Source of the DNA: an uncultured archaeon
GTDB lineage: Archaea > Asgardarchaeota > Thorarchaeia > Thorarchaeales > Thorarchaeaceae
NCBI GenBank assembly: GCA_964610875.1
Contig: CAZSWP010000017.1
Coordinates: 4,940 to 68,939 of the forward strand
Length of the DNA stretch: 64,000 bases
Direction: 5' to 3'
Shown in pieces: positions 49,049-61,561 of this stretch. The notes under the pieces were generated by a model that was not told the DNA's origin, made no database searches, and saw only the letters and a list, made by a program, of their open reading frames with translations. A program made the translations under genes and the position numbers. Numbering within the stretch: position 1 is the first letter of the stretch; each line of letters starts with the position of its first letter.

Positions 49049-49384
49049 TCAATTAATTTGCTGAACTATCAAGCGCTTAGAGGAATCATATCCTATTGTT
49101 ACGCGACTGTCAACTTTGATTGATTCAATAAGCTCGGGAGCCACATGACATAGTGCTTGTAGTCCTTCATCCAGTTCTACCAGTGCAAGGAAAACATGTG
49201 ACTCAAAACCTTCAGGAGGTCTATGAAGAGTAGTATGACTCTTTATAGTACCAATTGGTTTCATTAGAATCAATTCAGTCTTTTCTTTTGTGTCAGGACA
49301 AAATGGACAAGTTTCCCGAGGGGGGATTACATTTCTCCCACAGAATCTACAATGAGATGCTTCTATTCCATCAGAAACCAACAC
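49049..49384 (-). CDS. DUF35-type Zn-ribbon/OB-fold protein (short)
   Basis: Has the zinc ribbon CRFCGRNVIPPRETCPFCPD followed by an OB-like C-terminus. The start is GTG. Confidence 0.65.
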   Translation of the reverse strand: MLVSDGIEASHCRFCGRNVIPPRETCPFCPDTKEKTELILMKPIGTIKSHTTLHRPPEGFESHVFLALVELDEGLQALCHVAPELIESIKVDSRVTIGYDSSKRLIVQQIN

Positions 49385-49430: not shown

Positions 49431-49769
49431 TTAACCCTTTTTCGTTTTCAAGGTGCGAACGACAGTTTTCATATGTTTCTTAATGAATTTCATAAACTTG
49501 ATATCCTCAGTCAGATGAAGCTGAGTTCCATTGGAAAGAGAATTGATATCTCCATCAATCTCAATGGCTTCACCAAGGTCAATAATATCCTGTTTGAATA
49601 TCCCCTCTATTGCATGAGGAGAGAATCCTTCTTTCTTGTAAACTGGGAAAATCTGTCCTTTTGTCGCACTACCACCCATCTTTACAAGTGATAGAACCAT
49701 TAGCCAATGATGCCAAGCTAACGTATAGTTCTCAAGAAATCTCATTACTTCATCAAGCGACTTTGTCAT
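49431..49769 (-). CDS. Small hypothetical protein (possibly wHTH-like)
   Basis: 112 aa. GGGTGGA lies 8 nt upstream of the ATG. It is the last gene of the co-directional cluster. Confidence 0.45.
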   Translation of the reverse strand: MTKSLDEVMRFLENYTLAWHHWLMVLSLVKMGGSATKGQIFPVYKKEGFSPHAIEGIFKQDIIDLGEAIEIDGDINSLSNGTQLHLTEDIKFMKFIKKHMKTVVRTLKTKKG

Positions 49770-49783
49770 TTGTATTATCCACC

Positions 49784-51175
49784 CTAATCTGTATCATTGT
49801 TTTCTTCTGCTTGACCTGTTTCTTCATCTTCTGTACTAGTATCTACTTGTTCTGTTACTTCTTTAATTGCTTCTTCATCCATACCCGCAAGATTCTTTGC
49901 CACTTCTGAAAGGTTCATGGGTCGGATTTTGTCATCCTGAATCTCAACCAGACCTGCATCAATGAATTTCTGTAGTTGTCGCTTTAATAACACCATAGGA
50001 ACACCTAGAGCTGACGATAGGTGTTGTATGGGGAACCAATGCGTCTTCCCAGCAACTACAAAATACGCTTTGAATGCGGGTTCATCCTCTGCGACTTGGT
50101 AAAGCATTTCCCAACGGGCTTGCATTTCTGCAACATCTGCTTTTGCTGACCCAAATTCCTCTTCTAATGATGTAATTTCACCTTCCAAATTTGCAATTCT
50201 GGAAGAATAGGTTATATTTTCAGATTCTATTGTTTGAATTCGTCCTTTAGATTTCGCAAGCTCATCTTGAAGAGATTGGATATACTTCTCTTTTTGAAGC
50301 GTTATCTCTTCCAATTCACTGATTCTTCCTCTTGCTTCAGCAAGCTCAGTTGATTTATGTTCGAATTCTTCCACTAAATCAGCAGCAGTATCTAGTTTTT
50401 CAATCAAGTTTCTCTGTTGTTCAATCTGAGATTGAGCTTGACTCAATTCGCCTTTGGTAGCGGATAGTTCATCGTTTCGTTCAGAAACAGTTTTTTTCGC
50501 TTCTGCAAGAGAAGTTTTTAGGTCATCAATTTCTTCCTGTAATTGAACCATTGAAACATTCTTTTGCTGAACTTGAGTTTCTAGCTCTTTTGCCTTGCTC
50601 CTCCATTTTCTTGCCTCAGCCTGTGCAAGTTCGAGATTTTTTTCGGTTTCATTAATCGAAGCATAAAGTCGCAGTAATCTCTCTTGAAGAGAACCTGTTG
50701 ATTTACCGATTGTCTTGGCAGTACCCCGACTAGCTTTAGTGAGAACATCTTCAACTTGTTCTTTTGCATCCGAAATGGCTTCTTGAATAATTTTGAGAAT
50801 CTTCTCTATGGAAAGATTTTGTTTTAGCTCCTGATTCACAATGGATACAGCACGATTAGCAAAGACGCCCAGACCAGCTCCCTTCAGTTTTTCACTTAGC
50901 CTTTGTGAGATCCCTTCCAATTGCTTTTCAATTTCTGGTTCAGTGTTACTTAGACTATCTTCAATATTGGAGAGAATATCATCCATACGAACTTTGATTC
51001 TCTCAAAGGTTTCATCGACTTGTGACATGCCTTGGTCCGAGAAGGAGGTTTCCCCTGGTTTTTCATCCTCTAAAGGAACACCTTCTTGAATTGCTTGTTC
51101 CATAAGGATACGAGTCTTTTCTTCAATATCCTCTGGACTTTCCTCTTCAGGTTGGTCCTCCTTTCGACCTGACAC
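49784..51175 (-). CDS. Long coiled-coil protein with C-terminal winged-helix-like domain and acidic ends
   Basis: Heptad-rich Q/E/K/L segments (LELAQAEARKWRSKAKELETQVQQ..., ISELEEITLQKEKYIQSLQDELAKSK...). The C-terminus is HWFPIQHLSSALGVPMVLLKRQLQKFIDAGLVEI. The GTG start is preceded by GAGGTG. Confidence 0.6.
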   Translation of the reverse strand: MSGRKEDQPEEESPEDIEEKTRILMEQAIQEGVPLEDEKPGETSFSDQGMSQVDETFERIKVRMDDILSNIEDSLSNTEPEIEKQLEGISQRLSEKLKGAGLGVFANRAVSIVNQELKQNLSIEKILKIIQEAISDAKEQVEDVLTKASRGTAKTIGKSTGSLQERLLRLYASINETEKNLELAQAEARKWRSKAKELETQVQQKNVSMVQLQEEIDDLKTSLAEAKKTVSERNDELSATKGELSQAQSQIEQQRNLIEKLDTAADLVEEFEHKSTELAEARGRISELEEITLQKEKYIQSLQDELAKSKGRIQTIESENITYSSRIANLEGEITSLEEEFGSAKADVAEMQARWEMLYQVAEDEPAFKAYFVVAGKTHWFPIQHLSSALGVPMVLLKRQLQKFIDAGLVEIQDDKIRPMNLSEVAKNLAGMDEEAIKEVTEQVDTSTEDEETGQAEENNDTD

Positions 51176-51186
51176 CTATGTGCACC

Positions 51187-51564
51187 TCAGTGCAAAATTC
51201 CACGATATCCCATAGATGTAAGTTTTGCAGCTGTTTCCTTCAACTCTTCAGAAACAGTTGCTGCTTCCTGAATTCTAGACATCAATTCTTTGCGGAATTC
51301 AATTGCTGTCAGTTCACCTTTGTCAAGCCGTTCTGTAAGAGCACTGCGTTCATCCTGAAGTTTTTCTCGTCGTTTTTGAAGTCGCTCATAGTCCGCAACT
51401 AATTTCACCAACTCACCCTGTGTCTCCGGATCAAGTTCATCCACATCAGGAGGTGTTATACCTTTCTCAGGCATCGGGGTAGATGGCGTCATAATTTCAC
51501 GTGCTTTCACAGTAGTTCGTGATTTCTTTTTCTTTCGTCTTCTCCAACTGTCAAATAGACCCAT
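51187..51564 (-). CDS. Small basic-N-terminus coiled-coil protein
   Basis: Starts MGLFDSWRRRKKKKS, then a helical LVKLVADYERLQKRREKLQDERSALTERL segment. AGGTGGAG lies 5 nt upstream. Confidence 0.55.
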   Translation of the reverse strand: MGLFDSWRRRKKKKSRTTVKAREIMTPSTPMPEKGITPPDVDELDPETQGELVKLVADYERLQKRREKLQDERSALTERLDKGELTAIEFRKELMSRIQEAATVSEELKETAAKLTSMGYRGILH

Positions 51565-51576
51565 TGTTCTCCACCT

Positions 51577-52143
51577 TTACATGTTTTCGATTTTTTCTTG
51601 TATCTCTTTCAATTGAATTTCAAATTCCTTGCGCATTTCAGAGGCGACTCTCGCTTTATCGGCATATTCATCTGCACCAGCAGGGTCATTTAACTCCATT
51701 TCAGCAAGTTCATTCTCTTTTTCAAAAAGACGCGCAATCTTTGTCCGAATTTCATCAGCTTCTCTGAGTAATTCGTCCTTTGAAGCATCATGCGATGGTT
51801 CAATATCCTCTGAGGGTGTTTCCTCCCTTTCAATGATTACTTCATCATCTGATGTATCCTCAGCTGATTCTTTGTAGGACCTAAGACGGACAGATATACC
51901 CTGCTCCAATTCTTTCTCCAGTTTTTCCATTCGGCTTACAATATCATCCATCTTGGATTCAAATCGTTTTATCGTGACTGTCTGTCTATCAATAGTTTTG
52001 AATAACTCATTAGCAAAATCCTCAAAGTTAAGGCCATACTTGAAACTATCAAGGGTTTCTTTCATCTTCCCAATTTCTGTGATTAATCTGCGGCGTTCTT
52101 CTTCATTAACAATAGACTTGGATTCATCACTGTGTTCACTCAA
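51577..52143 (-). CDS. Acidic coiled-coil protein
   Basis: Helical and acidic throughout. I chose the TTG at 52143, 1 nt after the GTPase stop, with GAGGTGGAG upstream. The maximal ORF (to 52182) would overlap the GTPase gene by 38 nt. Confidence 0.55.
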   Translation of the reverse strand: MSEHSDESKSIVNEEERRRLITEIGKMKETLDSFKYGLNFEDFANELFKTIDRQTVTIKRFESKMDDIVSRMEKLEKELEQGISVRLRSYKESAEDTSDDEVIIEREETPSEDIEPSHDASKDELLREADEIRTKIARLFEKENELAEMELNDPAGADEYADKARVASEMRKEFEIQLKEIQEKIENM

Positions 52144-52144
52144 T

Positions 52145-53026
52145 CTACTCCACCTCAATATCTCCCACAATTCTAAAATCAATTGTTTCGAAAGCCAAAG
52201 CTTTCAGTAATTTCAACCATCTATCCCGGAAATCTCGCTGGTTTGCTTGCATGCCATAAGCAGGTACATCAAGTCGTTTTCCAACCTCTTGGGGTGATAA
52301 AGCACCCTTCAAGTCCTGTTTATTTGCGATAGCAATTGCTCTCGCATAGGGTAATTCCTGTTTCAATACAGGATATGCCACACGTTTGGTCCATGCTAGA
52401 TTTTCCTTTGTTGAATCTGCAACAATTACCACCATACTCCCAGCACGGATAATTTTTCCCCATTCTTGGACAAACCTATCCTGACCACCAAGGTCGAATA
52501 TACTGAAAACATACGGATCAAAATCTGCTTTCAATAGCGATTTGTCACCAAAGAATGTAGGCACATATTCTTGAGGAGGTCCCTGTGATGGTAATGTCGC
52601 CAGTTCAAGCAAGGTTGTTTTTCCAGTACCGCCATGCCCTGCAAGGCATAACTTGACTGGAATTCTTCCTACAATGTTCCTGAAACCTGTCTTGAAAGGT
52701 GAGAAATCTGTTGATTTCCATTCATTAGATTCTAATGTACTCTCAAATGCTGTCATGAATTTTGATACTAGATTCATTATTGCTTCTTCTACTTTGGACA
52801 ATGAAGCTTGACGATCCATGGTTACAATAAATTGTGTATCATGGCTGTTCATGTAGACATATCTGAACCGTTCGATTTCCATGGAATCAATTTTCCATTC
52901 TTGAAGTTTCTTTGCAGAAGATGATACGAGCATCATGACAGCACTGCCATCAAGATCATTATTGGGTACAATGATATCTTGAAAGAGAACTTGTCCGTCT
53001 TTAAACACATTGATCTCTCGGAGCAT
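52145..53026 (-). CDS. Longin/roadblock-like domain fused to a small GTPase (Arf/SR-beta-like G3)
   Basis: The N-terminal 120 aa (MLREINVFKDGQVLFQDIIV...FIVTMDRQASL...) are longin/roadblock-like. They are followed by G1 GHGGTGKT, G3 DLGGQ and G4 NKQD. Confidence 0.8.
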   Translation of the reverse strand: MLREINVFKDGQVLFQDIIVPNNDLDGSAVMMLVSSSAKKLQEWKIDSMEIERFRYVYMNSHDTQFIVTMDRQASLSKVEEAIMNLVSKFMTAFESTLESNEWKSTDFSPFKTGFRNIVGRIPVKLCLAGHGGTGKTTLLELATLPSQGPPQEYVPTFFGDKSLLKADFDPYVFSIFDLGGQDRFVQEWGKIIRAGSMVVIVADSTKENLAWTKRVAYPVLKQELPYARAIAIANKQDLKGALSPQEVGKRLDVPAYGMQANQRDFRDRWLKLLKALAFETIDFRIVGDIEVE

Positions 53027-53182
53027 TATCTAAACACCTTCATGGCCAGCAACATAATCGGAACTAACGCATAATGTATGTGAATTGTTTTCATAATAGA
53101 CTATTGTGTTTGGAATGTGCTCACTAGTATCATTTGATGTTTTATTTGGGAGTTGATACTTAACACACATTCTGAACACATT

Positions 53183-53219
53183 CCTTAAAGAAATAAATAA
53201 GGGAGGATTGAAATCCTCC
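53183..53219 (-). terminator. Hairpin plus T-rich tract directly after the giant gene stop
   Basis: Read on the minus strand, GGAGGAT-ttca-ATCCTCC is followed by CTTATTTATTTCTTT. Confidence 0.4.
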
Positions 53220-53233
53220 AATATTCTCCAAGT

Positions 53234-56200
53234 CTATTCTTCTTCTGGTTCTTCTTCAGCTTCAGACACTGCCTCCTTTTCTTCTTCGGATTCCGATGTT
53301 TCTTCAGATTCATCCTCTACTTCCTCCAGGTCAGATTCCGATTCCTCCTCGATCTCTTCATACTCAGGAAGTGTATCGTCATCAGAACTGGTAGATTCAT
53401 CATCAATGTCTACTTCTTCATCGGTTTCGCCCATATCGGCTTCTTCAACCTCAGGTCCCTCAGCTTCAGATGAAGTCTCTTCAGGTTTCTCTGAAACCTC
53501 AGCATCAGCAGATGATGTGTCCTCAATATCCTCGGTTTCAGAATCATCAGTTTCAATTGAGGCATCGTCCGTTTCATCAATTTGCTCAGCTTCTTCAGCT
53601 TCTTCTGCTTCCTCAAGCTCAGCACCTTCAGACTCATCATCTTCAACGACTTCTTCAGCTTCAGTTTCCTCAACATCTTGTGATACTTCAGATTCATCAA
53701 CATCAGATGCTTCATCAACGGGCCTTTCTTCTACAATGGAATCGAGTTCAGCTTCTAACTCAGATTCATAATCCTCAGATATGTCCTCCTCAGGAGCTTC
53801 GTCGGCACCAATCTCATCAAGAGCGTCTAGTTCGCCCAAGAGATCATCGGTTTCTTCTGCCAGAACATCGTATTCATAGCCCGGACCAACATCAATTGCT
53901 GGAGCAGAGATATCAAGTTCAGCAAGTCCTGCTGCAAGAAGTTCAGAAATAACTTGACCCATAGACTTGATGTTCTCAACCTTCGCGGTCTTCTGATCTT
54001 CAATTGCACTGACTGCCTTATTGATCTGTTTGATGACTACAGGTATCTTCCAACGACGATAGCCTACCGCGGCACCAGCAACAGCACCGAATAATACAGT
54101 CATGTACAGGATTGTCATCAATAGAGAAACAGGAACGACTAGAAAACCAGATAACCCAATTGGACTTAGGATATCTAAAGTCTGTTCTGAGATTGTTACC
54201 TGGATAGCCACATCCGTCTTATTCTCGTACATCGGTGCAGTAGCACTGAGATATACAGAGTATGGTTCTGCACGAAGCTCACCAATCTGTTCTGTGACAA
54301 GACTGATGAGATAGTGTGAACCATTGTATGTAATTTGACCTGCTGACAGTGTATATGTAGCAATAGGAGTTGTTACACTCACATCAATAACATTGTTTGT
54401 TCCAATCGGAACTTGATTAGCTAGGTCAAAGTATTGGAACACAATCCATAGTGTACTTCCTTCCTCTGCAACCACTGAAGGTCCAGTTAGAGAGGTCCTT
54501 GCATAGATGGTCAAGCTTGGATGAATAGTTATAGTGGTATAGTTCACAAGTGTAGCAGTGATGTTGAGTTCAAGCACACCAGGGATGTAACTAAGATCGA
54601 TATCAGAGGGATCAAAGTTCAGCTGATATTGACCAGTGCCTGCTTGGTAAGTTGCAGTATAGTCAGTACCGGCATATGTCATGGTTATGGTAGCCCCCAC
54701 AAGATTGCCAGATAGACTGACTGCAGTGTCTGATATAGAGAACGTCAGCAGGATGTCAAGACCTGTTGCATCGGTATATACTGTGTAGCTTGTTGCATCT
54801 GCACTGAGTTCAGTATCTACTGTTTCGATCGTGATATCGAGTACATAATCTGGTATGGTGTAGTTCTCATTTATGACTCGGATGTAGAGTTCATACACTC
54901 CTGCAGGTACTTCTCCCGCATTTATGACGACGAAATAGTCATCATTGTCATCATAGAATGTCAAAGGATGGAGCGTTATGTATCCACTCCAGAGATAGAA
55001 CACATCCGCAAACTCAATTGGGACATTTCCTCTGTAAATATCATTGACTCCGACACGGACCTCGAATGTGTTTGACCACTTTACTGTGATGGAATCATCA
55101 CTGGGCATTGTGAGTTCATCAGGAATAATTACTCCCTCAATTGGATTGACAATTACACTCGTTGTATTGAAGCTGTCAACATAGTTCGGTAGAGTATAGT
55201 TCAAAGTAAGAACATACCCCTCATCCCGGGCTGCGAACCATAAACTAGATGTGAAATTAACTCTGAATGTTCCATTCTGATAGTTTATCATATTCTCGGA
55301 ATACGGTCCATAGTATACCGTGATTGATGCACTCTCCCATATCATACCTCCGTGCAGTGCATCGTAGAGTGTAGCAGTGATAAAGATATTATCAGACCAA
55401 TAGACATCCTCAACTACGTCTATTAAGAGAGAAGTATCGGTCTCTCGCATCAACACGAATACGGTTTCTGGAATATCGTGTGTCTGAAATCCTTCAAGGA
55501 AGATATCAATTTGAATGATGTAGAAACTCGCACTCACAGCAGCTGTCATTCCAAGAGTCCTAGTATCAATCAATAGACTGTAGGTGCCATTCTCATGGTT
55601 AAACAAGCCCATTATTTCTACAGCAGGATTGACAATTTGAGTTATTGAACTATCATATGTTTCAATTCCATCCCCAGTCAAAGTATTATTCCAGAAGAAG
55701 CGAATCTCGAATATGTCCGCATAGTATTGTTCAAAGTATTGCTGTTCAAGGATAATCTCATTTGGTACTGCAAGAATCCTCACAAAGATTGTTGTTACAT
55801 CGGTGGTTGCTCCTGCATCAGTTGCAGTAATAATAATCTCGTAGAGTTCAGATTGTGGTACCGCATCAAACGCATTCAATGAGATATTGTAAAATCCACT
55901 GCCTTGTCCATCCAAACCACCTTCAAGGTCTACAATGGACTCAAGATACCAGTCATAGCTGATTGTTGCTGAATCCACAGGTGTAGTTGTCCTTGATTGG
56001 TCCCATAAGAAGACCTCGAGTACAAACGATTCGGTCCAATATACCTCAAGAGGATTCTCAGAGGAACCAAATTCGGTCTCAATGAGTAATGGTACACGTA
56101 TATTAACTGTCAGCTGGAATGCTGCATTATCGTGGTTATCTTTTGAGAATGTTATATCCAAGACGTAGCTACCAGATTCAAGGTTAGTACCCAACGATAT

Positions 56201-59200
56201 TGAGTACTCCCCATCGCCCATATATGCTACATTAATTGAGTCTGTCCAGTTGTGTGTATATGACGCTCCAGATAATGGAACAGAACCTGCAGTTCGTTCA
56301 TAAAATATCAAGAAATTAGCTGTTCCCAACCAATCAACTGTGATATCACTAGACCCAGTGACACCCATCGTTATGGGAGCTGGAGACACAGTTAGCAGAC
56401 TTGCTAAAGCTTTTGTGGCTTGAGCATAGTTTGCTTTGGAACATGTGATAGTTAAGTTCCAATCACCAACTGGAAGTAAATCACTTGAGAATGTATAGGT
56501 AAATGTACCACCTGAGGCAGAAAGTGTCTTCGTTGCATTGAGATATGACACACCTGCATCAGTGTACCATCTTAGAACCACTGTAACACTGGAAAGTCCA
56601 GGATTGGTTGTGTTGTCTGGATCGAAAATGTAAGTGAATGTGATATCCTGAGTCGTTCCTACATTCCAATCATAACCTGAAACTGGTGTGATGATTACCT
56701 GCATTGGAATTTCTTCTACAGTTATATCACCAGTGATTGATTGACTGATATAGTTCTGTTTCTCCAAGCTGATAATCAATGTGTAGAAATCAACATTGAG
56801 TTGGTTTAAGACACTCTGTGGAAGAATGAACACATCTCCGCTTGGATTAAGGTCACCAGAGGCAATTGTTGTTGATCCTCGTTTGATAGTATATGTATAG
56901 ATGTCTAAATCTGTCACATTCACATTATTGGTTGTATCCTCTAGCCAGAACTGGTAATCATTATGAGACCCATAGTAATCAACTATCGAGGTTGTTTCAG
57001 ATCCATCATCTGTCAAAGCATTTTGAACTGTGACATAGAGAGTGATTGGCGCTGGGTCATCATAGGTATCAGTATGAGCGCTCACCCGTATTGTATATGG
57101 AGTTTCAGAAGCATTCATCAACCAATAGTCAGTATCAATAATGATTGTGAAATTGATAGTTCCATCATTGGTTACATAGAAGTACCCTGAGTTATTCCAA
57201 GTACCTGAACCAATAAATGTGGATTCGAAGAAGATACTGAAGTTGACCCAGGTAGTGACATAGGAAGATATCTGACTTGTATCATTATCACCATCTCTAT
57301 CATAATATCCCACAATAGCAGTGGCATTCCTTCCCCACCGTACATTGAGGAAATATGCAGTAGAGTTGAGTTCGGTATACTGCTCATTATATGTAGGTGC
57401 TATGATGTAAATAACATTCTCATAGGTCCAATCAAAGTCACATTTTACTATGACAGATGATTCGGACTGATCGCCTGAAATGACGTCCACAGTGTATGAT
57501 AGAGAATATGGACTACTCATGTTTCCATGAATGTAGAAGAATGTGACCTGACCTGAACTATTAGTGTTTCCTTGAGCAATAAGACCAACACCCACTAGAG
57601 TTACGTTTACCTGAGCATTTTGAACAACTGCTTCAGTTCCTTCCTGTCTTACTTCAATGTTTAGTCTAGTGATAGCAAGATTTACCGTGAAAGTAATCTC
57701 ACCCTGTACATTTGTCTGAATGATATCTGCAGTATTATTGCGAGCGGTCTGAGTCAGAGGATAGTCATCGTCCTTCCAGACATCCATCTGCCATGTACCA
57801 TTCACAATACGATAGAACTCAAAGTACCCATTCTCATCAGAAGTTGCAGTAATAGAGTATGCATTCTCATTTAGTGTGTTATTGATTTTAATGGTGGCAC
57901 CTTCCACAGGTTGGTCATCCCAGCTATTAACGTAGATGTTCATGGTAACAAGTGGTAGTACCCAATCGGGATGGCTGAAAGAACCTCCTATAAACTCAGT
58001 CTGACTTATTGTCCAAGCACCGAAATTGGTCATATCATCGTAAGTATAGCTGTCTACTGGACCATCATATCTTACAAAGACATCGTAATCACCAACAGGC
58101 ACGCGATAGAAATACGCCCAACCAGTACTGTTCACTACATCATAGTCTGTGAAGTTAGCTGTATTGCCATCCGGAGATAATCTTACGGTCGTTGTTTCGT
58201 CTGGATTATCATTCATAGAATCGGACATTAGATCATCAAAGTGAATTTCAATTGACGCTAGGTCTAGAGTTATTGTCACAGGTGTAACAGAACCAGTGAT
58301 TGCTTGGTTTGTGGAGTCTGTGCTTTCCCAGACCTGTGAGGAAGATAACCAAGTTGCAGTAATGTTTGTACGGATATCATAGGTTATGTTGCTCAGACCT
58401 TCGAAGATTATCAAACCATTTGCATCAGTAGTGCCAGTCCGAGTTCTTCCATTGTCATCTTCCCAAACATCACCAGTTGTATTGTATAGTGTAACGGTGG
58501 CGCCTTCAACAGGTACACCATCTAGGTCTACTACAGTTACATCCAACTCGAAGAGGTTTACCTCCTCTCCAAGGTCAATTGAGAATCCATTCTGGTCATT
58601 TTCAGGAGAATAAGCTGGTACCATCCATCCAAATCCCGTATCAGAAGTTGGATAATACGGAGATGTGGTTGAGAATTTGCCAACATCAACAACGCCGACT
58701 GTTGCGTTTGATGTGATGTGATAGAGTGTCATGCTTGTAGACCAAGGCATGAAATATGTCATTCCACCCTTAGGAATCTCAAGTGTTTGGCCGTTATAGC
58801 CTTCAATGTCCACTTCTGCATTCTCAAGAGCAACAATCATGAATTTGTAACTTCTAGTTCCCCAGAGTTTGTAATTACTACCGTAACGATCACCAGTGAT
58901 TGTGGGCACCCAATCCCCTGCATCTGTTGCAGAAGTTGGATTGTAGAGTCCCTCTACCATAATCATGTAATTCTCCTCTGCTACAATGTGGAGGATATCT
59001 TCAGTATTGGTATCACTTGCCGTGCCACGAGCGATAAGCTGTGAGCTGTTTGCCGCTATAGTAAGAGTTCCACCAAAGACAAAACCAGAACCACTATTTC
59101 GATACCAATCTACTTCAACAGTGGTATCGTTCAGGTTTGTGACTCGTGTGTAGTCGCTACTATGTCCCATATCAATGGTATAGAACTCTTCTCCAGCCAA

Positions 59201-60397
59201 GTCACCATTTATTGCAGGATAGAATGCCCAAATATCTCGTGCATGACTGCAATCCTGATCACCCATTCGTGTTGAAACTGCTTTTGTAGCATTCACATAT
59301 GTTATTGATGTATAGATGTAGTCACCTTTGTAGATGTACTCACCAGCATCCAGAACTGCGGGAAATGATGCAGCACTATTGTTGATGTATTTCCAACCTG
59401 TATCCGCCTCCATGCTTGATGTCCAGACATATACCTCTGTATCGTCTTCGTGTGCCTGAATCCAGTACTTCCCTTCATTTCGTGAATCAAACCCTTCAAC
59501 GCCACCAAGTACCCACTCGGTCGCAGTTCCAGAACCCAATTCCGAAACTCCTGGGAACCAATCATTGATAGCTGAATTTGAACCCTCATCACCCTGGCCT
59601 ACATGCACAGCCATTGGATAATTTGAATACACGGCATAGTAACCTTGGAACAAAGAGTACGAGTATGGTTCTGGTTCATATCGTGCTTGTTCATATGCAC
59701 TAAGAGTGCCATTGGGAACATTTGTGGTATACACACTGCCACTTGTGCCAGCCCATCTGTCATCCAAGTTTCTTGGATCATCCCATACCTGATTATTTGT
59801 ATCATACTTCTCAATGTTGTATTGATTATTATCATAGTATGAGATTAGACTCAATAGAGAGAAAGTGTAACTCTTGTAGATGAAGGGATAGAAATCGGGA
59901 TAACTGACTGACCCAACATCTTCCTTAGCATAGTAAATGTAGTAATTGGGTTCTCTCTGGCTTTGACTAACATTCACAAGAAATGTTACCCTTGTTGAAA
60001 GAATGTAAGTACCAGTTGCATCATAAGTAGTATTCCAAATCTGGAAAGGCTGGGGGGTCCAATCAGGATCATCATAATATAGAACTCGAATAGAACCGTC
60101 GTAACAATGTCCTGCTTCAAACTCGAGGAAGAGATGTACTGGTGTATTGATTCTATCCGACACACCGGGTTCTGTGAAATTGTAGTATCTACGATAAATG
60201 TAGGAACTATTCCACCATTTTGCCAAGTCTTGTTCATTGGCAGCTAGTTCCACGTCACCATTCTTCATCGTTAAATCATCACTAGTGTCATCTGCAAAAG
60301 ATGACGGGTTCATCGTCGCTGGCTCTGCTCCATTCAGAGGGAGGAGTAGCATAACAGCAAATACAGCTAGAATTCCAATCTTTACTATTCTATTCAA
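53234..60397 (-). CDS. Giant (2387 aa) type-I membrane surface protein with a beta-rich ectodomain, one TM helix and a 275-aa cytoplasmic tail
   Basis: The TTG start is preceded by GGAGGTGGA. The signal peptide is MNRIVKIGILAVFAVMLLLPLNGAEP. There are CarboxypepD_reg-like units (PVEGATVTLYN..TDANGLIIFEGL) and many roughly 100-aa beta modules. The TM helix is LVVPVSLLMTILYMTVLFGAVAGAAVG, followed by YRRWK. Confidence 0.85.
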   Translation of the reverse strand: MNRIVKIGILAVFAVMLLLPLNGAEPATMNPSSFADDTSDDLTMKNGDVELAANEQDLAKWWNSSYIYRRYYNFTEPGVSDRINTPVHLFLEFEAGHCYDGSIRVLYYDDPDWTPQPFQIWNTTYDATGTYILSTRVTFLVNVSQSQREPNYYIYYAKEDVGSVSYPDFYPFIYKSYTFSLLSLISYYDNNQYNIEKYDTNNQVWDDPRNLDDRWAGTSGSVYTTNVPNGTLSAYEQARYEPEPYSYSLFQGYYAVYSNYPMAVHVGQGDEGSNSAINDWFPGVSELGSGTATEWVLGGVEGFDSRNEGKYWIQAHEDDTEVYVWTSSMEADTGWKYINNSAASFPAVLDAGEYIYKGDYIYTSITYVNATKAVSTRMGDQDCSHARDIWAFYPAINGDLAGEEFYTIDMGHSSDYTRVTNLNDTTVEVDWYRNSGSGFVFGGTLTIAANSSQLIARGTASDTNTEDILHIVAEENYMIMVEGLYNPTSATDAGDWVPTITGDRYGSNYKLWGTRSYKFMIVALENAEVDIEGYNGQTLEIPKGGMTYFMPWSTSMTLYHITSNATVGVVDVGKFSTTSPYYPTSDTGFGWMVPAYSPENDQNGFSIDLGEEVNLFELDVTVVDLDGVPVEGATVTLYNTTGDVWEDDNGRTRTGTTDANGLIIFEGLSNITYDIRTNITATWLSSSQVWESTDSTNQAITGSVTPVTITLDLASIEIHFDDLMSDSMNDNPDETTTVRLSPDGNTANFTDYDVVNSTGWAYFYRVPVGDYDVFVRYDGPVDSYTYDDMTNFGAWTISQTEFIGGSFSHPDWVLPLVTMNIYVNSWDDQPVEGATIKINNTLNENAYSITATSDENGYFEFYRIVNGTWQMDVWKDDDYPLTQTARNNTADIIQTNVQGEITFTVNLAITRLNIEVRQEGTEAVVQNAQVNVTLVGVGLIAQGNTNSSGQVTFFYIHGNMSSPYSLSYTVDVISGDQSESSVIVKCDFDWTYENVIYIIAPTYNEQYTELNSTAYFLNVRWGRNATAIVGYYDRDGDNDTSQISSYVTTWVNFSIFFESTFIGSGTWNNSGYFYVTNDGTINFTIIIDTDYWLMNASETPYTIRVSAHTDTYDDPAPITLYVTVQNALTDDGSETTSIVDYYGSHNDYQFWLEDTTNNVNVTDLDIYTYTIKRGSTTIASGDLNPSGDVFILPQSVLNQLNVDFYTLIISLEKQNYISQSITGDITVEEIPMQVIITPVSGYDWNVGTTQDITFTYIFDPDNTTNPGLSSVTVVLRWYTDAGVSYLNATKTLSASGGTFTYTFSSDLLPVGDWNLTITCSKANYAQATKALASLLTVSPAPITMGVTGSSDITVDWLGTANFLIFYERTAGSVPLSGASYTHNWTDSINVAYMGDGEYSISLGTNLESGSYVLDITFSKDNHDNAAFQLTVNIRVPLLIETEFGSSENPLEVYWTESFVLEVFLWDQSRTTTPVDSATISYDWYLESIVDLEGGLDGQGSGFYNISLNAFDAVPQSELYEIIITATDAGATTDVTTIFVRILAVPNEIILEQQYFEQYYADIFEIRFFWNNTLTGDGIETYDSSITQIVNPAVEIMGLFNHENGTYSLLIDTRTLGMTAAVSASFYIIQIDIFLEGFQTHDIPETVFVLMRETDTSLLIDVVEDVYWSDNIFITATLYDALHGGMIWESASITVYYGPYSENMINYQNGTFRVNFTSSLWFAARDEGYVLTLNYTLPNYVDSFNTTSVIVNPIEGVIIPDELTMPSDDSITVKWSNTFEVRVGVNDIYRGNVPIEFADVFYLWSGYITLHPLTFYDDNDDYFVVINAGEVPAGVYELYIRVINENYTIPDYVLDITIETVDTELSADATSYTVYTDATGLDILLTFSISDTAVSLSGNLVGATITMTYAGTDYTATYQAGTGQYQLNFDPSDIDLSYIPGVLELNITATLVNYTTITIHPSLTIYARTSLTGPSVVAEEGSTLWIVFQYFDLANQVPIGTNNVIDVSVTTPIATYTLSAGQITYNGSHYLISLVTEQIGELRAEPYSVYLSATAPMYENKTDVAIQVTISEQTLDILSPIGLSGFLVVPVSLLMTILYMTVLFGAVAGAAVGYRRWKIPVVIKQINKAVSAIEDQKTAKVENIKSMGQVISELLAAGLAELDISAPAIDVGPGYEYDVLAEETDDLLGELDALDEIGADEAPEEDISEDYESELEAELDSIVEERPVDEASDVDESEVSQDVEETEAEEVVEDDESEGAELEEAEEAEEAEQIDETDDASIETDDSETEDIEDTSSADAEVSEKPEETSSEAEGPEVEEADMGETDEEVDIDDESTSSDDDTLPEYEEIEEESESDLEEVEDESEETSESEEEKEAVSEAEEEPEEE
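53237..53866 (-). other. Extreme acidic (D/E/S/T) low-complexity segment of the cytoplasmic tail
   Basis: The last 210 or so codons are almost entirely E/D/S/T/A (..EETEAEEVVEDDESEGAELEEAEEAEEAEQIDETDD..EEEPEEE). Confidence 0.8.
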
Positions 60398-61561
60398 CTA
60401 TTCCACCTCCATCATTGCAGTAGCGTTGCTTGGATGAAACTTCTTCAGTACTTCCAGATAGTGAATGGCTTGTCGACTGGGGACCTCTTCATCATTGTAC
60501 AAGTCGACGGTTCTGCTTACTAACCATTCAGGATAGACTGTAGCAACCTCTGGACTGCATTTCAGCATCACATGTTGTCTACCATCCTCATCGTTAATTT
60601 TGAGGATAATATTGTGTTTCTCTAGTTTGGACAATTGACTTCTTAGACCGGACTTGTTTGTATCTAAAAGTTCTTGGAGATTCTCAACAAGTCGAGGACC
60701 ATCTCTTAGAATCTCAATTATGTCATACGCTTCGAAATCAAGAAGGATTTTTGCTAATTGATCGGCTTCTGTCCAGATTGTTTCAGATAGATCTTTCCTG
60801 AGTCTGGCAATATAGTCACGATGATAACGCTTAGTTGACTGTAAGAACTGCTCAGAAACTTCCTGAGGTAACTTACCACTGCGAATTGCTCTGATCGTTT
60901 CACGCGATATTTCTCTCAAGATGAAGAGAGCACGTGTCAGATATATCACTTCGGAGGATAATCCCTCAACCCAGCCAGTTGCAATGATACCCATCTTCAC
61001 TAGTGGTCTGAGTACCATGTCAACGTCAATCTTCTTTCCAACCTCTTCAAAGATTATCTGTTCAAGGTCAGAAGCTTGTAGGCTACCGTTCCTCATGAGT
61101 ACTTGTAGAATTGCACGTCTCACAGGGTCACTCAATACCGAAGCCTGTCGCTGCTCGGGTGTCATCTGAGTGTATCGAGCAATCTGTTTGTAGAGCTTTG
61201 GTACCATCTCAGTATATTTGTCATCGTCAGCATTCAGGAAAATCTGGGTTGCAATCTCAGGTAGTGCATCTTTGTAGATATCTGGGTCCTCACTTGGTTC
61301 AAGAACAAGGAATACCATAGAGGGTTGTCCCTTTAGATGCATATTCAAACCACCATAATATACTGCGAGTTTGAACTCATCAAACGCAAGTGAACTGAAT
61401 CCAGGTTTTTGTGATTCTTCGGTCTCACCTAATGTCGCAATACCATAGACCCGCATACTTGTTGTCGGGTCTAATCCCACCTTGAGCTTCTTTGGTGTCT
61501 TAGAGGTGACAACAGGACCAAGCTCATCGTCCCATTTCAAAACAGCCAATCCTTCAGGCAT
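60398..61561 (-). CDS. Longin/uDENN-like N-terminal domain plus two winged-helix (ArsR-like) domains, hypothetical
   Basis: The N-terminus is LAVLKWDDELGPVVTSKTP...FKLAVYYGG...SMVFLVLEP. The wHTH-like segments are RRAILQVLMRNGSLQASDLEQI and YDIIEILRDGPRLVENLQELLDTNKSGLRSQLSKLEKHNII. Its stop abuts the giant gene start. Confidence 0.6.
   Translation of the reverse strand: MPEGLAVLKWDDELGPVVTSKTPKKLKVGLDPTTSMRVYGIATLGETEESQKPGFSSLAFDEFKLAVYYGGLNMHLKGQPSMVFLVLEPSEDPDIYKDALPEIATQIFLNADDDKYTEMVPKLYKQIARYTQMTPEQRQASVLSDPVRRAILQVLMRNGSLQASDLEQIIFEEVGKKIDVDMVLRPLVKMGIIATGWVEGLSSEVIYLTRALFILREISRETIRAIRSGKLPQEVSEQFLQSTKRYHRDYIARLRKDLSETIWTEADQLAKILLDFEAYDIIEILRDGPRLVENLQELLDTNKSGLRSQLSKLEKHNIILKINDEDGRQHVMLKCSPEVATVYPEWLVSRTVDLYNDEEVPSRQAIHYLEVLKKFHPSNATAMMEVE

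What the first reader, a model, noticed from the sequence alone, without database searches (positions are those of the whole stretch)
49431..61561. Candidate undescribed module: longin-wHTH protein, giant type-I membrane protein, longin-GTPase fusion, three coiled-coil proteins and a wHTH-like protein
Seven consecutive minus-strand ORFs have gaps of 0, 207, 1, 12, 11 and 14 nt. They fall into two units. Unit 1 is 60398..61561, stop-to-start coupled to the 2387-aa giant. Unit 2 is the GTPase fusion followed by 51577..52143, 51187..51564, 49784..51175 and 49431..49769. The units are separated only by a hairpin with a T-rich tract. The G domain is the only recognisable enzyme-type domain; the rest are longin/roadblock-like, winged-helix-like, coiled-coil or beta-rich surface modules. 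The layout suggests a surface receptor or adhesin whose long cytoplasmic tail is read by a GTPase and coiled-coil machinery. I know of no described archaeal system with this composition.
Basis: partly seen in the sequence, partly recalled or inferred. Interest (0 to 1): 0.85.

Follow-up and report, generated by a model that had tools for sequence, protein, structure and literature searches.

The report
Surface-protein-linked longin and GTPase module
In this Thorarchaeota genome, and in several other Asgard archaeal lineages, a giant cell-surface protein is encoded next to (or fused with) a longin/winged-helix protein and usually an Arf-like small GTPase, which pairs an Asgard GTPase with candidate regulators and a membrane partner and makes that pairing testable.

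Summary
The seven minus-strand genes are real, with exactly the stated coordinates and gaps. The window comes from a Thorarchaeota genome.

- **A (387 aa)**: a longin domain followed by two winged helices.
- **B (2387 aa)**: a glycoprotein-like type-I surface protein.
- **C (293 aa)**: a longin domain fused to an intact Arf-like GTPase.
- **D, E, F**: helical proteins with coiled-coil-family matches. G's fold is undetermined.

Comparative genomics supports a functional module.
- A sits within one gene of a giant protein carrying the same cytoplasmic juxtamembrane motif in Thor, Atabeyarchaeia, Odin, Loki and unclassified Asgard loci.
- In Loki-type proteins, A is fused to the giant's C-terminus.
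- A and C are adjacent in Thor, Atabey and Jordarchaeia loci.
- E and F homologues follow C outside Thor.
- Within Thor, B, D and F are nearly always present or absent together.

My best reading is a receptor-coupled small-GTPase switch: the giant's juxtamembrane helix docks A, A's longin regulates C, and E tethers the complex to the membrane. All binding and activity steps are inferred.

A resembles NPRL2/NPRL3 only at fold level, and the sequence tests failed. It shares a WDxxxGP motif with C9orf72.

The parts are known Asgard kinds, but I found no description of this assembly. I class it as a new variant of a known kind, with high interest.

The parts
60398..61561 (-). Gene A: 387-aa cytoplasmic protein with a longin-like domain (aa 1-130), winged helix 1 (aa 135-217), a helical linker, winged helix 2 (aa 279-342) and C-terminal helices.
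   Evidence: ORF. The AF2 model has pLDDT 81.7 with this topology. HTH_20 scores above its cut-off. Thor homologues are 68-81% identical. The family has 240 clusters at 50% identity, and every member that carries an organism name is from an Asgard lineage. Foldseek multi-domain hits are to NPRL2/NPRL3.
61514..61534 (-). WDDELGP motif (aa 10-16) at the beta1-loop-beta2 turn of A's longin domain.
   Evidence: W10, D11, G15 and P16 are invariant in Thor. W, D and G are at least 90% conserved family-wide. The spacing matches C9orf72 W33-D34...G38-P39, whose sequence I verified. The motif's role is described in PMC12290439.
53234..60397 (-). Gene B: 2387-aa giant type-I surface protein with a TTG start abutting A's stop codon. 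It has a signal-like N-terminus and a beta-rich, sequon-rich ectodomain.
   Evidence: Thor orthologues are 29-55% identical. Giants with the same N-domain signature and C-terminal architecture occur in Atabey, Odin and Loki loci.
54062..54160 (-). Transmembrane segment of B (about aa 2080-2112).
   Evidence: Kyte-Doolittle scan.
53900..54061 (-). Conserved cytoplasmic juxtamembrane segment of B (aa 2113-2166: YRRWKIPVVIKQINKAVSAIE...LLAAGLAELDISAP). This is the proposed docking site for A.
   Evidence: An alignment of 13 giants from Thor, Atabey, LC30, Odin, Loki and other Asgard loci has an invariant Pro and a near-invariant Lys. In the Loki-type proteins, the full A module follows this segment in the same chain.
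53237..53899 (-). Acidic, low-complexity tail of B (aa 2167-2387).
   Evidence: The whole 275-aa cytoplasmic tail (aa 2113-2387, which includes this stretch) has 117 D/E. The stretch varies in length and sequence between orthologues.
53192..53219 (-). Hairpin (7 bp, 4 G-C pairs) followed by a T-rich tract, in the 207-nt B-C spacer. It is a possible terminator or attenuator between the two units.
   Evidence: The scan found 5 terminator-like sites in the region against 7.1 expected in shuffles, so the pattern alone is not significant.
52145..53026 (-). Gene C: 293-aa fusion of a longin-like domain (aa 1-120; 52667-53026) and an Arf-like small GTPase (aa 121-293).
   Evidence: Pfam Arf. G motifs are intact. 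AF2 topology. The best PDB matches are the Asgard GerdArfR1 entries 8oum/8oun by sequence and 8oum by fold. The N-terminal domains from four lineages give weak hits to four different longin Pfam families. Thor orthologues are 74-88% identical.
51577..52143 (-). Gene D: 188-aa acidic helical, coiled-coil-like protein. It is an accessory part of the module.
   Evidence: It gives only weak coiled-coil family matches. It is present in Thor type-I loci and L042 and absent wherever B is absent.
51187..51564 (-). Gene E: 125-aa basic protein. It has an N-terminal MGLFDSWRRRKKKK amphipathic/polybasic peptide (51517-51564), a linker, and a roughly 70-aa helical region with the motif LDKGELTAIEFRKEL.
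   Evidence: Homologues follow C in every Thor locus long enough to show it, and in L042, L044, L045 and L050. An E-like helical segment is fused to the C-terminus of the C-like GTPase in Loki locus L048 (read by eye).
49784..51175 (-). Gene F: 463-aa acidic coiled-coil protein with a conserved C-terminal winged-helix-like domain (about aa 365-430; 49886-50083).
   Evidence: SMC/Rad50 coiled-coil matches. Homologues occur in L042 (9e-24) and L044 (6e-5). Matches are stronger between L042 and the Atabey-type loci L044/L045.
49431..49769 (-). Gene G: 112-aa basic protein of unknown fold, always last in the Thor cluster.
   Evidence: It has a homologue in L042 (9e-17). It gives no Pfam or PDB match.

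Best explanation
I read this as a membrane-proximal small-GTPase switch coupled to a giant surface protein.

**Shown by sequence and comparative genomics**
- B is a signal-peptide-bearing, sequon-rich, single-pass surface protein.
- B's only conserved cytoplasmic element is a juxtamembrane segment.
- A is a cytoplasmic longin + two-winged-helix protein. In other Asgard lineages it is encoded next to such giants or fused to their C-terminus directly after that segment.
- C is a longin domain fused to an Arf-like GTPase with intact catalytic motifs, and it is adjacent to A in at least four lineages.
- E and F accompany C in several lineages.

**Inferred**
1. A docks on the juxtamembrane helix of B.
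2. The longin domain of A pairs with the longin domain of C, as longin and roadblock domains do in GATOR1, FLCN-FNIP, C9orf72-SMCR8, Mon1-Ccz1 and MglB. This forms the platform that sets the nucleotide state of C's G domain.
   - The WDxxxGP motif shared with C9orf72 favours a GAP co-factor role.
   - The lack of a conserved arginine at the NPRL2 position leaves GEF or scaffold roles open.
3. E tethers the complex to the membrane through its N-terminal amphipathic/polybasic peptide. This supplies in trans the amphipathic helix that classical Arf proteins carry and that C has replaced with a longin domain.
4. The coiled-coil proteins D and F, and G, are effectors or scaffolds recruited by the GTP-bound form.

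The net function would be to couple the state of a large extracellular protein (contact, ligand or load) to local events at the inner face of the membrane, or the reverse: to control clustering or placement of the surface protein.
For: **Observation and anatomy**.

**Fusions (Rosetta-stone evidence)**
- The profile search with A found its full module at the C-terminus of proteins of 588-2548 aa: P0257, P0258, P0264, P0275, P0281, P0284, P0288, P0305 and P0309.
- The six of these that I read have an ectodomain, a TM, the juxtamembrane motif and then the A module. The complete ones also begin with a signal or anchor.

**A adjacent to a giant**
- Atabeyarchaeum L044 (4-nt overlap) and LC30 L045.
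- Odin LCB_4 L047, one gene apart.
- Lokiarchaeota L048 (4-nt overlap) and L049.
- L053.
- 24 Thor loci of type I, and 6 of type IIa where the thiolase gene lies between.

**Juxtamembrane motif**: conserved in 13 giants from these lineages.

**A adjacent to C**
- All Thor loci that include that flank, and L044 and L045.
- Jordarchaeaceae L050.
- A C-like longin-GTPase lies immediately upstream of A in L048 and divergently next to the fused giant in L004.

**E and F**: homologues follow C in L042, L044 and L045, and an E homologue follows C in L050. L048 appears to carry a C::E fusion.

**Co-variation within Thor**: B, D and F are present or absent together, with one exception, L017.

**Coupling signals**: stop/start abutment or overlap, and GGTG Shine-Dalgarno-like motifs before the internal genes.

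**Fold**: the best multi-domain Foldseek matches of A are NPRL2 (probability 0.99, 0.95, 0.94) and NPRL3 chains of GATOR1.

**Literature**: longin and roadblock domains are GTPase platforms (PMC10933270; PMC12290439).
Against: - No interaction, GTPase activity or localisation has been measured or even modelled.
- Sequence homology of A to NPRL2 or C9orf72 is not demonstrable. hhalign gave probability 0.1-0.5%, and 20 family members gave no Pfam NPR2 hit.
- The Foldseek E-values are weak (about 2e-3) and global TM-scores are low.
- No arginine is conserved across the family in A's longin domain. Pro16 of the GP motif is confined to Thor and its nearest relatives.
- Some A-family genes have no giant nearby: Thor type IIb, Jord L050 and Njord L054. 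Some are fused to TPR-SIR2 instead (L052).
- In Thor, the flanking metabolic genes are as syntenic as the module, so within-Thor synteny alone is weak evidence.
- A's second winged helix passes the ArsR-type HTH threshold, which is compatible with DNA binding.
- The hairpin and T-tract may separate A-B from C-G transcriptionally.
Confidence: 0.5

Rival explanations
1. Biogenesis or sorting machinery. A, C and E are not a signalling device. They form a dedicated GTPase-driven system that targets, inserts, positions or quality-controls the giant surface protein. A comparable case is the eukaryotic SRP receptor, where the longin-fold SRX domain of SR-alpha binds the Arf-like GTPase SR-beta. Another is a polar-sorting system.
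For: - A longin domain plus an Arf-like GTPase in one chain recalls the SRX/SR-beta pair (own knowledge). SRPRB is among C's Pfam hits (E 0.0094).
- The client-like partner is always a very large secreted protein.
- The tight translational coupling of A and B would suit a dedicated chaperone or targeting factor.
Against: - The SRPRB score (15.8 bits) is below its cut-off of 25 and far below the Arf score.
- C has no TM anchor.
- A fused permanently to the mature giant's cytoplasmic end fits a resident partner better than a transient targeting factor.
- The conserved element lies on the cytoplasmic side after the TM. It would leave the ribosome only after most of the protein has been made.
Confidence: 0.2
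2. A is a transcription factor. It would be an ArsR/MarR-type winged-helix regulator with a longin sensor domain, as public annotations call it. It would either simply regulate the neighbouring genes, or be held at the membrane by B and act like a ToxR-type membrane-tethered regulator or a released regulator.
For: - HTH_20 and HTH_5 score above their Pfam cut-offs in A.
- MarR/ArsR structures are the best matches of the second winged helix, by sequence profile and by fold.
- Several sources name it an ArsR/HxlR/MarR regulator.
- In the window protein, the presumed recognition helix has net charge +3.
Against: - Across the family, the presumed recognition helices carry net charges from -4 to +3 with no conserved basic or polar pattern.
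- A is acidic overall (pI 5.2).
- Only 6 of 20 diverse members reach an HTH Pfam hit.
- The conserved partners are a membrane giant and a GTPase.
- Winged helices in NPRL2/3 and ESCRT-II, which are also among the fold matches, are protein-binding modules.
Confidence: 0.15
3. Adhesion or motility polarity module. This uses the same parts, but the output is mechanical, as in Myxococcus. There the small GTPase MglA, its roadblock-fold GAP MglB and coiled-coil adaptors engage envelope-spanning adhesion complexes. Here the GTPase and coiled coils would link the giant adhesin to the cytoskeleton, or fix its position on protrusions.
For: - A roadblock/longin regulator with a small GTPase and coiled-coil proteins is the MglA/MglB logic (PMC10933270; PMC13408092 listed).
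- The giants carry Ig-like, FG-GAP and invasin-like adhesin-type domains, mostly as sub-threshold hits.
- Cultured Lokiarchaea show complex surface proteins on protrusions that contain actin filaments (PMC9834061).
Against: - The G domain of C is Arf-like. I did not compare it directly with MglA.
- No cytoskeletal gene lies in any of the loci I read.
- No motility is known for these organisms (own knowledge).
Confidence: 0.1
4. Chance synteny. The genes are neighbours only because Thorarchaeota genomes have diverged little, and they have no common function.
For: Thiolase, the DUF35/ChsH2 OB-fold protein, acyl-CoA dehydrogenase and a 184-aa protein are just as syntenic across the Thor loci.
Against: - The A-giant, A-C and C-E-F linkages persist in Atabey, Odin, Loki, Jord and other lineages at 23-38% identity, in entirely different flanking contexts and with changed gene order.
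- Gene fusions join B to A. An apparent fusion joins C to E.
Confidence: 0.05

Closest known systems
GATOR1 subunits NPRL2/NPRL3 acting on Rag GTPases (eukaryotic lysosomal nutrient sensing), and the 'NPRL2-like' Asgard protein family of Liu et al. (bioRxiv 10.1101/2020.10.19.343400)
   Same: - A has nearly the size of human NPRL2 (387 against 380 aa).
- It has an N-terminal longin domain followed by a C-terminal region containing winged helices.
- NPRL2 and NPRL3 chains are its best multi-domain fold matches.
- Its gene neighbour is a small GTPase carrying its own longin/roadblock-type domain, as Rag GTPases do.
[quoted passage not shown] That fits A's distribution, but I could not confirm it is the same family.
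   Different: - No sequence-level homology was detected.
- No arginine is conserved in the beta4-beta5 loop, where NPRL2 has Arg78 (position by own knowledge).
- No DEPDC5-like partner lies in the loci.
- The GTPase is Arf-like, with its longin domain N-terminal. Rags are the reverse, with a C-terminal roadblock domain.
- The membrane partner is a giant surface protein and not a lysosomal complex.
C9orf72-SMCR8 (CSW) longin-DENN complex, a GAP for Arf GTPases
   Same: - A carries WDDELGP at the beta1-beta2 turn of its longin domain. C9orf72 has WDNILGP (W33-D34, G38-P39) at the equivalent place.
- Both motifs are reported as functionally important or GAP-specific (PMC12290439).
- The client in both cases is an Arf-type GTPase.
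   Different: - The alignment is not statistically significant (E 0.12, probability 0.5%).
- A has winged helices where C9orf72 has a DENN module.
- The proline is confined to Thor and close relatives.
- No SMCR8-like arginine-finger partner has been identified.
Asgard Arf-related GTPases (ArfR; GerdArfR1, PDB 8oum/8oun) and the longin-GTPase fusions noted by Tran et al. 2024
   Same: - C's G domain matches 8oun/8oum best by sequence and 8oum best by fold.
- Fusions of a GTPase domain to a longin or roadblock domain are a recognised Asgard architecture (PMC10933270).
   Different: - ArfR proteins bind membranes through an N-terminal amphipathic helix (bioRxiv 10.1101/2024.02.28.582541). C has a longin domain there instead. 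The amphipathic peptide sits on the separate protein E.
- Tran et al. state that small GTPase genes of the cultured Lokiarchaeon MK-D1 are generally not in operons with longin or roadblock genes. Here they are.
Ragulator (LAMTOR1 lipid anchor plus roadblock dimers) with Rag GTPases
   Same: A small, mostly helical protein begins with Met-Gly and has a membrane-binding N-terminus (E). It is encoded with longin/roadblock-type proteins and a GTPase. This resembles LAMTOR1/Ego1 anchoring Ragulator-Rag (roles taken from PMC10933270).
   Different: This is purely an analogy. I saw no sequence or fold similarity between E and LAMTOR1, and I did not compare them directly. Archaea are not known to myristoylate proteins (own knowledge), so E's peptide would bind as an amphipathic/polybasic helix.
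MglA/MglB polarity switch of Myxococcus with coiled-coil adaptors and envelope adhesion complexes
   Same: It comprises a small GTPase, a roadblock/longin-fold regulator, coiled-coil proteins and a surface adhesion apparatus.
   Different: C's G domain is Arf-like; I did not compare it directly with MglA. The regulator is fused or multi-domain. The surface partner is a single giant type-I protein. No motility genes are nearby.

Membership tests
Arf family small GTPases (incl. Asgard ArfR) | Ras-superfamily G domain that scores above the Pfam Arf (PF00025) cut-off, with G1, G3 and G4 motifs intact. | tested here: met
   45.5 bits against a cut-off of 22.3. GHGGTGKT, DLGGQ and NKQD are invariant in 26 orthologues. 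The best PDB matches are 8oum/8oun.
Arf family small GTPases (incl. Asgard ArfR) | N-terminal amphipathic helix that mediates GTP-dependent membrane binding. | tested here: not met
   The N-terminal 120 aa of C form a longin-type alpha/beta domain. An amphipathic/polybasic N-terminus is found on the separate protein E.
Rag/Gtr GTPases | N-terminal Gtr1/RagA-type G domain (PF04670) followed by a C-terminal roadblock dimerisation domain. | tested here: not met
   C gives no PF04670 hit at E <= 0.1. The domain order is the reverse, with the longin N-terminal.
NPRL2/NPRL3 (GATOR1) | Sequence membership in Pfam NPR2/NPR3, or profile similarity to NPRL2. | tested here: not met
   20 diverse A-family members gave no NPR2/NPR3 hit. 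hhalign against human NPRL2 (sequence verified) gave probability 0.1%. Against a vertebrate NPRL2 alignment it gave 0.15%. That NPRL2 profile was shallow (87% mean identity), so the test is weak.
NPRL2/NPRL3 (GATOR1) | Architecture of an N-terminal longin domain plus a C-terminal region containing winged helices. | tested here: met
   AF2 model. Foldseek hits: 9o5d_D probability 0.99, 7t3a_B 0.95, 9v0j_A 0.94, and NPRL3 chains 9o5a_C and 7t3a_C. E-values are only about 2e-3 to 4e-2 and global TM-scores are 0.15-0.27.
NPRL2/NPRL3 (GATOR1) | Catalytic arginine finger in the longin domain (NPRL2 Arg78, in the beta4-beta5 loop). | tested here: not met
   No arginine is conserved in A's longin domain across the family. 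The invariant or near-invariant longin positions are G4, W10, D11, G15, P23, Y68, L87 and E91. The equivalent loop position was judged by eye from secondary structure.
C9orf72-type GAP longin | WD motif and GP motif at the beta1-beta2 turn of the longin domain. | tested here: met
   A has W10-D11-x3-G15-P16, and C9orf72 has W33-D34-x3-G38-P39. W, D and G are conserved family-wide. P is conserved only in Thor and P0241.
C9orf72-type GAP longin | DENN module downstream of the longin domain, and significant sequence similarity. | tested here: not met
   The downstream domains are winged helices. hhalign gave E 0.12, probability 0.5%.
ArsR/SmtB-MarR winged-helix transcription regulators | HTH domain scoring above the Pfam cut-off. 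| tested here: met
   HTH_20 scores 34.5 against 27, and HTH_5 scores 25.1 against 22.
ArsR/SmtB-MarR winged-helix transcription regulators | DNA-recognition helix conserved across the family, and a stand-alone dimeric regulator architecture. | tested here: not met
   Net charge of the presumed recognition helix ranges from -4 to +3 across 20 members, with no conserved pattern. Only 6 of 20 members hit an HTH Pfam. The protein is 387 aa with a longin domain, and in some lineages it is fused to a membrane giant. DNA binding itself cannot be tested here.
SRP receptor SR-alpha(SRX)/SR-beta | SR-beta-type GTPase (PF09439) with an N-terminal membrane anchor, bound by a longin-fold SRX domain. | tested here: not met
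   SRPRB scores 15.8 bits against a cut-off of 25. The translation of C shows no hydrophobic N-terminal segment (read by eye), and the AF2 model folds its N-terminus as a longin-type alpha/beta domain.
MglA/MglB system | MglA-type GTPase together with a separate roadblock homodimer, MglB. | not tested
   Considered only as a functional analogy. C's best matches are of Arf type.

The most novel reading that the evidence does not exclude
The module may be an archaeal, plasma-membrane version of the eukaryotic lysosomal longin-GAP/small-GTPase hubs (GATOR1-Rag, FLCN-FNIP, C9orf72-SMCR8-Arf, Ragulator). In it, a transmembrane sensor would recruit a C9orf72/NPRL2-like longin protein that controls an Arf/Rag-like GTPase. 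A small anchor protein with a Met-Gly N-terminus would hold the complex on the membrane, and coiled-coil proteins would act as effectors. If this is homologous and not convergent, it would show that receptor-coupled longin regulation of Arf-type GTPases predates eukaryotes and endomembranes. It would also provide defined GTPase-regulator-membrane partner sets for experiments.
Probability: 0.2. Interest if true: 0.9.

Novelty: new variant of a known kind. Interest (0 to 1): 0.78.

Why it matters
Asgard archaea encode dozens of small GTPases and longin or roadblock proteins. Which regulator acts on which GTPase, and at which membrane site, is largely unknown.

Tran et al. (PMC10933270) state that the genome layout of the cultured Lokiarchaeon MK-D1 makes it hard to match individual GTPases to GAPs or GEFs. 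Dvorak et al. (PMC12290439) ask which GTPases partner the GAP-like Asgard longins.

This locus and its relatives answer part of that by genomic linkage and fusion. They define:
- one longin-winged-helix protein;
- one longin-Arf-like GTPase;
- one small protein with an amphipathic N-terminus;
- a giant surface protein with a conserved juxtamembrane motif.

All of these are short enough, or can be cut into domains, for direct biochemistry. The Loki-type fusions occur in the class that has cultured representatives.

If the proposed mechanism holds, it would be an example of a surface-receptor-coupled small-GTPase switch in archaea. It would also be a plausible precursor of eukaryotic longin-GAP signalling.

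Tried and rejected
- **Sequence membership of A in NPRL2.** Pfam scans of 20 members found no NPR2/NPR3 hit. hhalign against human NPRL2 and against a vertebrate NPRL2 alignment was not significant. My third and last homologue search went on NPRL2 and returned only vertebrate sequences at 75% identity or more, so that profile was shallow and the test weak.
- **hhalign of A against C9orf72.** The alignment is in register over 46 columns, including the WD and GP motifs, but it is not significant.
- **PDB sequence searches.** A alone or as a profile matched only MarR/ArsR winged helices. The G profile matched nothing useful.
- **Locus scan with the diverse A alignment.** I used the GTPase alignment instead.
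- **Promoter and terminator scan.** It uses bacterial sigma-70 rules, so its promoter hits mean nothing for an archaeon. Terminator-like sites were not enriched (5 found against 7.1 expected).
- **The long acidic tail as the conserved 'read' element.** Rejected, because the tails vary and only the juxtamembrane segment is conserved.
- **Thiolase, DUF35 and acyl-CoA dehydrogenase as parts of the module.** Rejected. They flank it only in Thor, and the non-Thor loci have other neighbours.
- **Supplementary tables of Liu et al.** None are held. The published Nature version is not held either. I therefore could not confirm that A is their 'NPRL2-like' family.

Full report
**1. Observation**

The seven minus-strand ORFs are at the stated coordinates:
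- A 60398-61561
- B 53234-60397
- C 52145-53026
- D 51577-52143
- E 51187-51564
- F 49784-51175
- G 49431-49769

D's start at 52143 is a TTG lying 1 nt after C's stop. It is preceded by GAGGTGGAG. Similar GGTG Shine-Dalgarno-like motifs precede B, E, F and G. This fits translation of internal genes on polycistronic messages.

The 207-nt B-C spacer begins with the hairpin GGAGGATTTCAATCCTCC followed by CTTATTTATTTCTTT. The general terminator scan found no enrichment (5 sites against 7.1 expected), so the hairpin is a feature and not proof of a terminator.

**2. Source organism**

Homologues of C (142 hits, 75-88% identical) and of A (192 hits, 68-81% identical) are almost all named Thorarchaeota. 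The window is therefore from a Thorarchaeota genome.

**3. The parts**

*A (387 aa).*
- It passes the Pfam HTH_20 and HTH_5 cut-offs at aa 279-319.
- Its AlphaFold2 model (pLDDT 81.7, pTM 0.72) has these elements:
  - an N-terminal longin-like sheet with helices (aa 1-130);
  - a winged helix (135-217);
  - two long helices;
  - a second winged helix (292-342);
  - C-terminal helices.

*B (2387 aa).*
- It has a hydrophobic N-terminus and weak Ig-like or carboxypeptidase-regulatory hits.
- A hydrophobic segment lies at about aa 2080-2112, followed by a 275-aa tail with 117 D/E.
- The ectodomain has 45 N-x-S/T sequons against 25.9 +/- 4.2 in shuffles. The tail has none. This fits an extracellular glycoprotein.

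*C (293 aa).*
- It scores 45.5 bits on Pfam Arf.
- GHGGTGKT, DLGGQ and NKQD are invariant in 26 orthologues.
- It matches the Asgard ArfR entries best: 8oun/8oum by sequence and 8oum by fold.
- Its first 120 residues fold as beta-beta-alpha-beta-beta-beta-alpha.
- The equivalent domains from four lineages each give a weak hit to a different longin-clan Pfam family: Intu_longin_3, Fuz_longin_1, Longin and Clat_adaptor_s.

*D, E, F and G.*
- F has clear SMC/Rad50-type coiled-coil matches and a conserved C-terminal winged-helix-like segment.
- D and E give only weak coiled-coil family matches.
- E starts with MGLFDSWRRRKKKK.
- G has no match anywhere, so 'wHTH-like' remains unverified.

**4. Conservation within Thorarchaeota**

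A scan of one genome per species with the C alignment gave 42 loci. I mapped the window's proteins onto these and onto the four loci fetched earlier (L001-L004) with tblastn.

| Layout | Gene order | Loci |
|---|---|---|
| Type I | thiolase-A-B-C-D-E-F-G-DUF35-ACAD-184aa | 24 |
| Type II | thiolase-A-C-E-G-DUF35-ACAD-184aa | 15 |

- B, D and F are present or absent together. L017 is the one exception: it has F but neither B nor D. L041 has a giant of only about 700 aa.
- In six type-II loci (L002, L003, L031-L034), a giant with a C-terminal TM and the same juxtamembrane motif lies just upstream of the thiolase gene.
- In the other nine, no giant lies in the upstream sequence held, up to about 8 kb.
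- The flanking metabolic genes are just as syntenic, so within-Thor synteny alone proves little.
- Thiolase and the DUF35 OB-fold protein are known partners in archaea (own knowledge). The module therefore looks inserted between them.

**5. Conservation beyond Thorarchaeota, which is the decisive evidence**

A profile search with A against 1.84 billion representative proteins found 240 clusters. Members that carry an organism name come from Thor, Jordarchaeaceae, Odinarchaeia, Lokiarchaeota, Hodarchaeota and Njordarchaeia; one Njord-cluster sequence also carries a Korarchaeota name in NCBI nr. Atabeyarchaeum is added from its genome record.

| Locus | Lineage | Gene order |
|---|---|---|
| L044 | Atabeyarchaeum deiterrae | giant(1604)-A-C-E-like-F-like; 4-nt overlap giant/A, 7-nt gap A/C |
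| L045 | Promethearchaeati LC30 | as L044, plus a second longin-GTPase |
| L047 | Odin LCB_4 | A-140aa-giant(1552) |
| L048 | Lokiarchaeota | longin-GTPase(411)-A-giant(2395) |
| L049 | Promethearchaeota | giant(1626)-A |
| L053 | unclassified | membrane protein (1903 aa, two TM-plus-motif units)-TPR-A |
| L050 | Jordarchaeaceae | A-C-E-like, no giant |
| L042 | unnamed (C 56% identical) | C-D-E-F-(510-aa protein with an A-like N-terminus)-G |

Homology of the smaller genes is significant by BLASTP:
- E: 6e-13 and 9e-7.
- F: 9e-24 and 6e-5.
- G: 9e-17.

*Counter-examples.*
- Njord L054 has A alone.
- L052 has the A module fused to TPR and SIR2 domains.

**6. Fusions**

- Nine representatives of 588-2548 aa carry the complete A module at their C-terminus.
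- The six I read have an ectodomain, one TM, the juxtamembrane motif and then A. The complete ones (P0288, P0305) also begin with a signal anchor and a LamG-like region.
- One of them (locus L004) is flanked by four GTPase-domain genes. One of these resembles C over its whole length.
- The Loki 411-aa GTPase of L048 ends in a helical segment that I read by eye as carrying E's signature motif. That would be a C::E fusion.

**7. The juxtamembrane motif**

Thirteen giants from Thor, Atabey, LC30, Odin, Loki and other loci align over the 50-60 residues after the TM. The pattern is (K/R)(I/V)Pxx(I/V)K(Q/K)(I/L), with an invariant Pro and a near-invariant Lys. In Thor, Atabey and LC30 a second block, LLxPGLxxL, follows.

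Beyond this segment the tails are acidic or repetitive and are not conserved. The conserved cytoplasmic element is thus the juxtamembrane helix, not the long tail.

**8. Mechanism (inference)**

- The fusions and overlapping genes argue that A is the resident cytoplasmic partner of the giant.
- Longin and roadblock domains act as dimeric platforms for small GTPases (PMC10933270). A and C each carry one, which suggests an A-C longin pair that controls C's G domain.
- A carries WDDELGP at the beta1-beta2 turn. C9orf72 has WDNILGP at the same structural place. PMC12290439 reports the WD residues as essential and the GP motif as specific to GAP-type longins. This favours a GAP co-factor role.
- No arginine is conserved in A's longin domain across the family, and the proline is confined to Thor and its closest relatives. 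GEF or scaffold roles therefore remain open.
- E's N-terminus is amphipathic and polybasic in Thor (MGLFDSW-RRRKKKK), L042 (MGIFDSLLRKKYKKK), LC30 and Jord (MGLINKVVSFFKGLLGG). It would supply in trans the membrane-binding helix that ArfR proteins carry and that C lacks.
- D, F and G would be effectors or scaffolds.
- I give this reading a confidence of 0.5. Every binding and catalytic step is inferred.

**9. Rivals**

- *Biogenesis or sorting machine for the giant (0.2).* It recalls SRX/SR-beta, but SRPRB scores below its cut-off and permanent fusion argues for a resident partner.
- *Transcription factor (0.15).* This is supported by the HTH score and public annotations. Against it:
  - the recognition-helix charge is not conserved (-4 to +3);
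  - the pI is acidic;
  - only 6 of 20 members give HTH hits;
  - membrane fusions exist.
- *Adhesion or polarity module of the MglA/MglB kind (0.1).* It shares the logic, but I found no direct evidence.
- *Chance synteny (0.05).* The cross-class conservation and the fusions contradict it.

**10. Comparison with known systems**

*By fold.* A's best multi-domain matches are NPRL2 (probability 0.99, 0.95, 0.94) and NPRL3 of GATOR1. Next come Fuzzy/Inturned, the FLCN complex and ESCRT-II. E-values are only about 2e-3 and global TM-scores are low.

*By sequence.* Tests for NPRL2 membership failed. The C9orf72 alignment is in register but not significant. I therefore do not file A as an NPRL2 or C9orf72 family member. 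It works like, and is built like, a longin-type GTPase regulator.

*Literature.*
- Liu et al. describe an 'NPRL2-like' family in most Thor genomes and some Loki genomes, and note longin-GTPase fusions.
- Tran et al. list such fusions and note that operon pairing is uncommon in MK-D1.
- Four of my five full-text searches bore on this. They found no description of the linkage to giant surface proteins, of the juxtamembrane motif, or of the E and F partners.
- The library is incomplete, so absence there is not proof.

**11. Verdict**

This is a new variant of a known kind: a longin-regulated small-GTPase switch, here coupled to a giant surface protein. It is of high interest because it supplies defined, testable partner sets.

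Noticed in passing
window 47156-47710 (-): A 184-aa protein has an N-terminal longin/roadblock-like region (MPILEYLMVYTEAGLPIYSK...; weak Fuz_longin_1 hit, E 0.03) and a C-terminal CPLGDRCPIH motif. It is conserved next to the acyl-CoA dehydrogenase gene in most Thor loci (43-73% identity). It could be a further partner of the module, separated from it by two metabolic genes.
   Followed up: partly
window 61802-62983 (-) and 49049-49384 (-): The thiolase gene and the DUF35/ChsH2-type OB-fold and zinc-ribbon gene, which are normally partners in archaea, are separated by the 12-kb module. In Thor type-II loci only 2.6-2.9 kb (A-C-E-G) separates them. In six loci a giant gene lies upstream of the thiolase gene. 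The module looks inserted into, and rearranged around, a metabolic operon.
   Followed up: partly
window 53208-53771 (+) and 53470-53952 (+): Long antisense ORFs (187 aa, Ser-rich; 160 aa, Gln/His/Leu-rich) lie opposite the acidic tail of B. They are most likely artefacts of the GAA/GAG-rich coding strand and not genes.
   Followed up: no
window 13008-18620 (+): A second giant ORF (1871 aa) has a hydrophobic segment 13 residues from its C-terminus. It lacks the juxtamembrane motif and is a different kind of surface protein from B.
   Followed up: no
window 45292-47097 (+): A 601-aa protein with three N-terminal hydrophobic segments is conserved in the same relative position and orientation in many Thor loci, and also in L042 (15454-17181). 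It gave no Pfam hit in the neighbouring-gene tables.
   Followed up: no
L052 4826-11063: Two tandem paralogues (1046 and 1020 aa; P0311, P0301) carry the A module at the N-terminus, fused to TPR repeats and, in one, a SIR2_2 domain. This is a quite different use of the same module.
   Followed up: no
L004 7733-9688 (-): A 651-aa protein lies next to the Loki giant::A fusion. It has an Arf-like GTPase domain, a weak LAMTOR3/MP1 roadblock hit in the middle and a Ras/Rab-like GTPase at the end. Two further GTPase genes and a 286-aa unknown gene lie on the other side of the giant.
   Followed up: partly
L012 3-9984 and L014 3-9878: Two Thor loci carry two giant genes in tandem upstream of C. Each giant has its own TM and juxtamembrane motif. 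Some tails (L012, L014, L041, L002, L047) contain repeated helical 'LPxxxKxxMSxEEL' units instead of a purely acidic tail.
   Followed up: no
L044 12101-12652 (-) and L045 12001-12546 (-): A Rab-like small GTPase gene (181-183 aa) lies convergently just after the F-like gene in both Atabey-type loci. L045 also has a second longin-GTPase with a C-terminal coiled coil (12788-13804).
   Followed up: no
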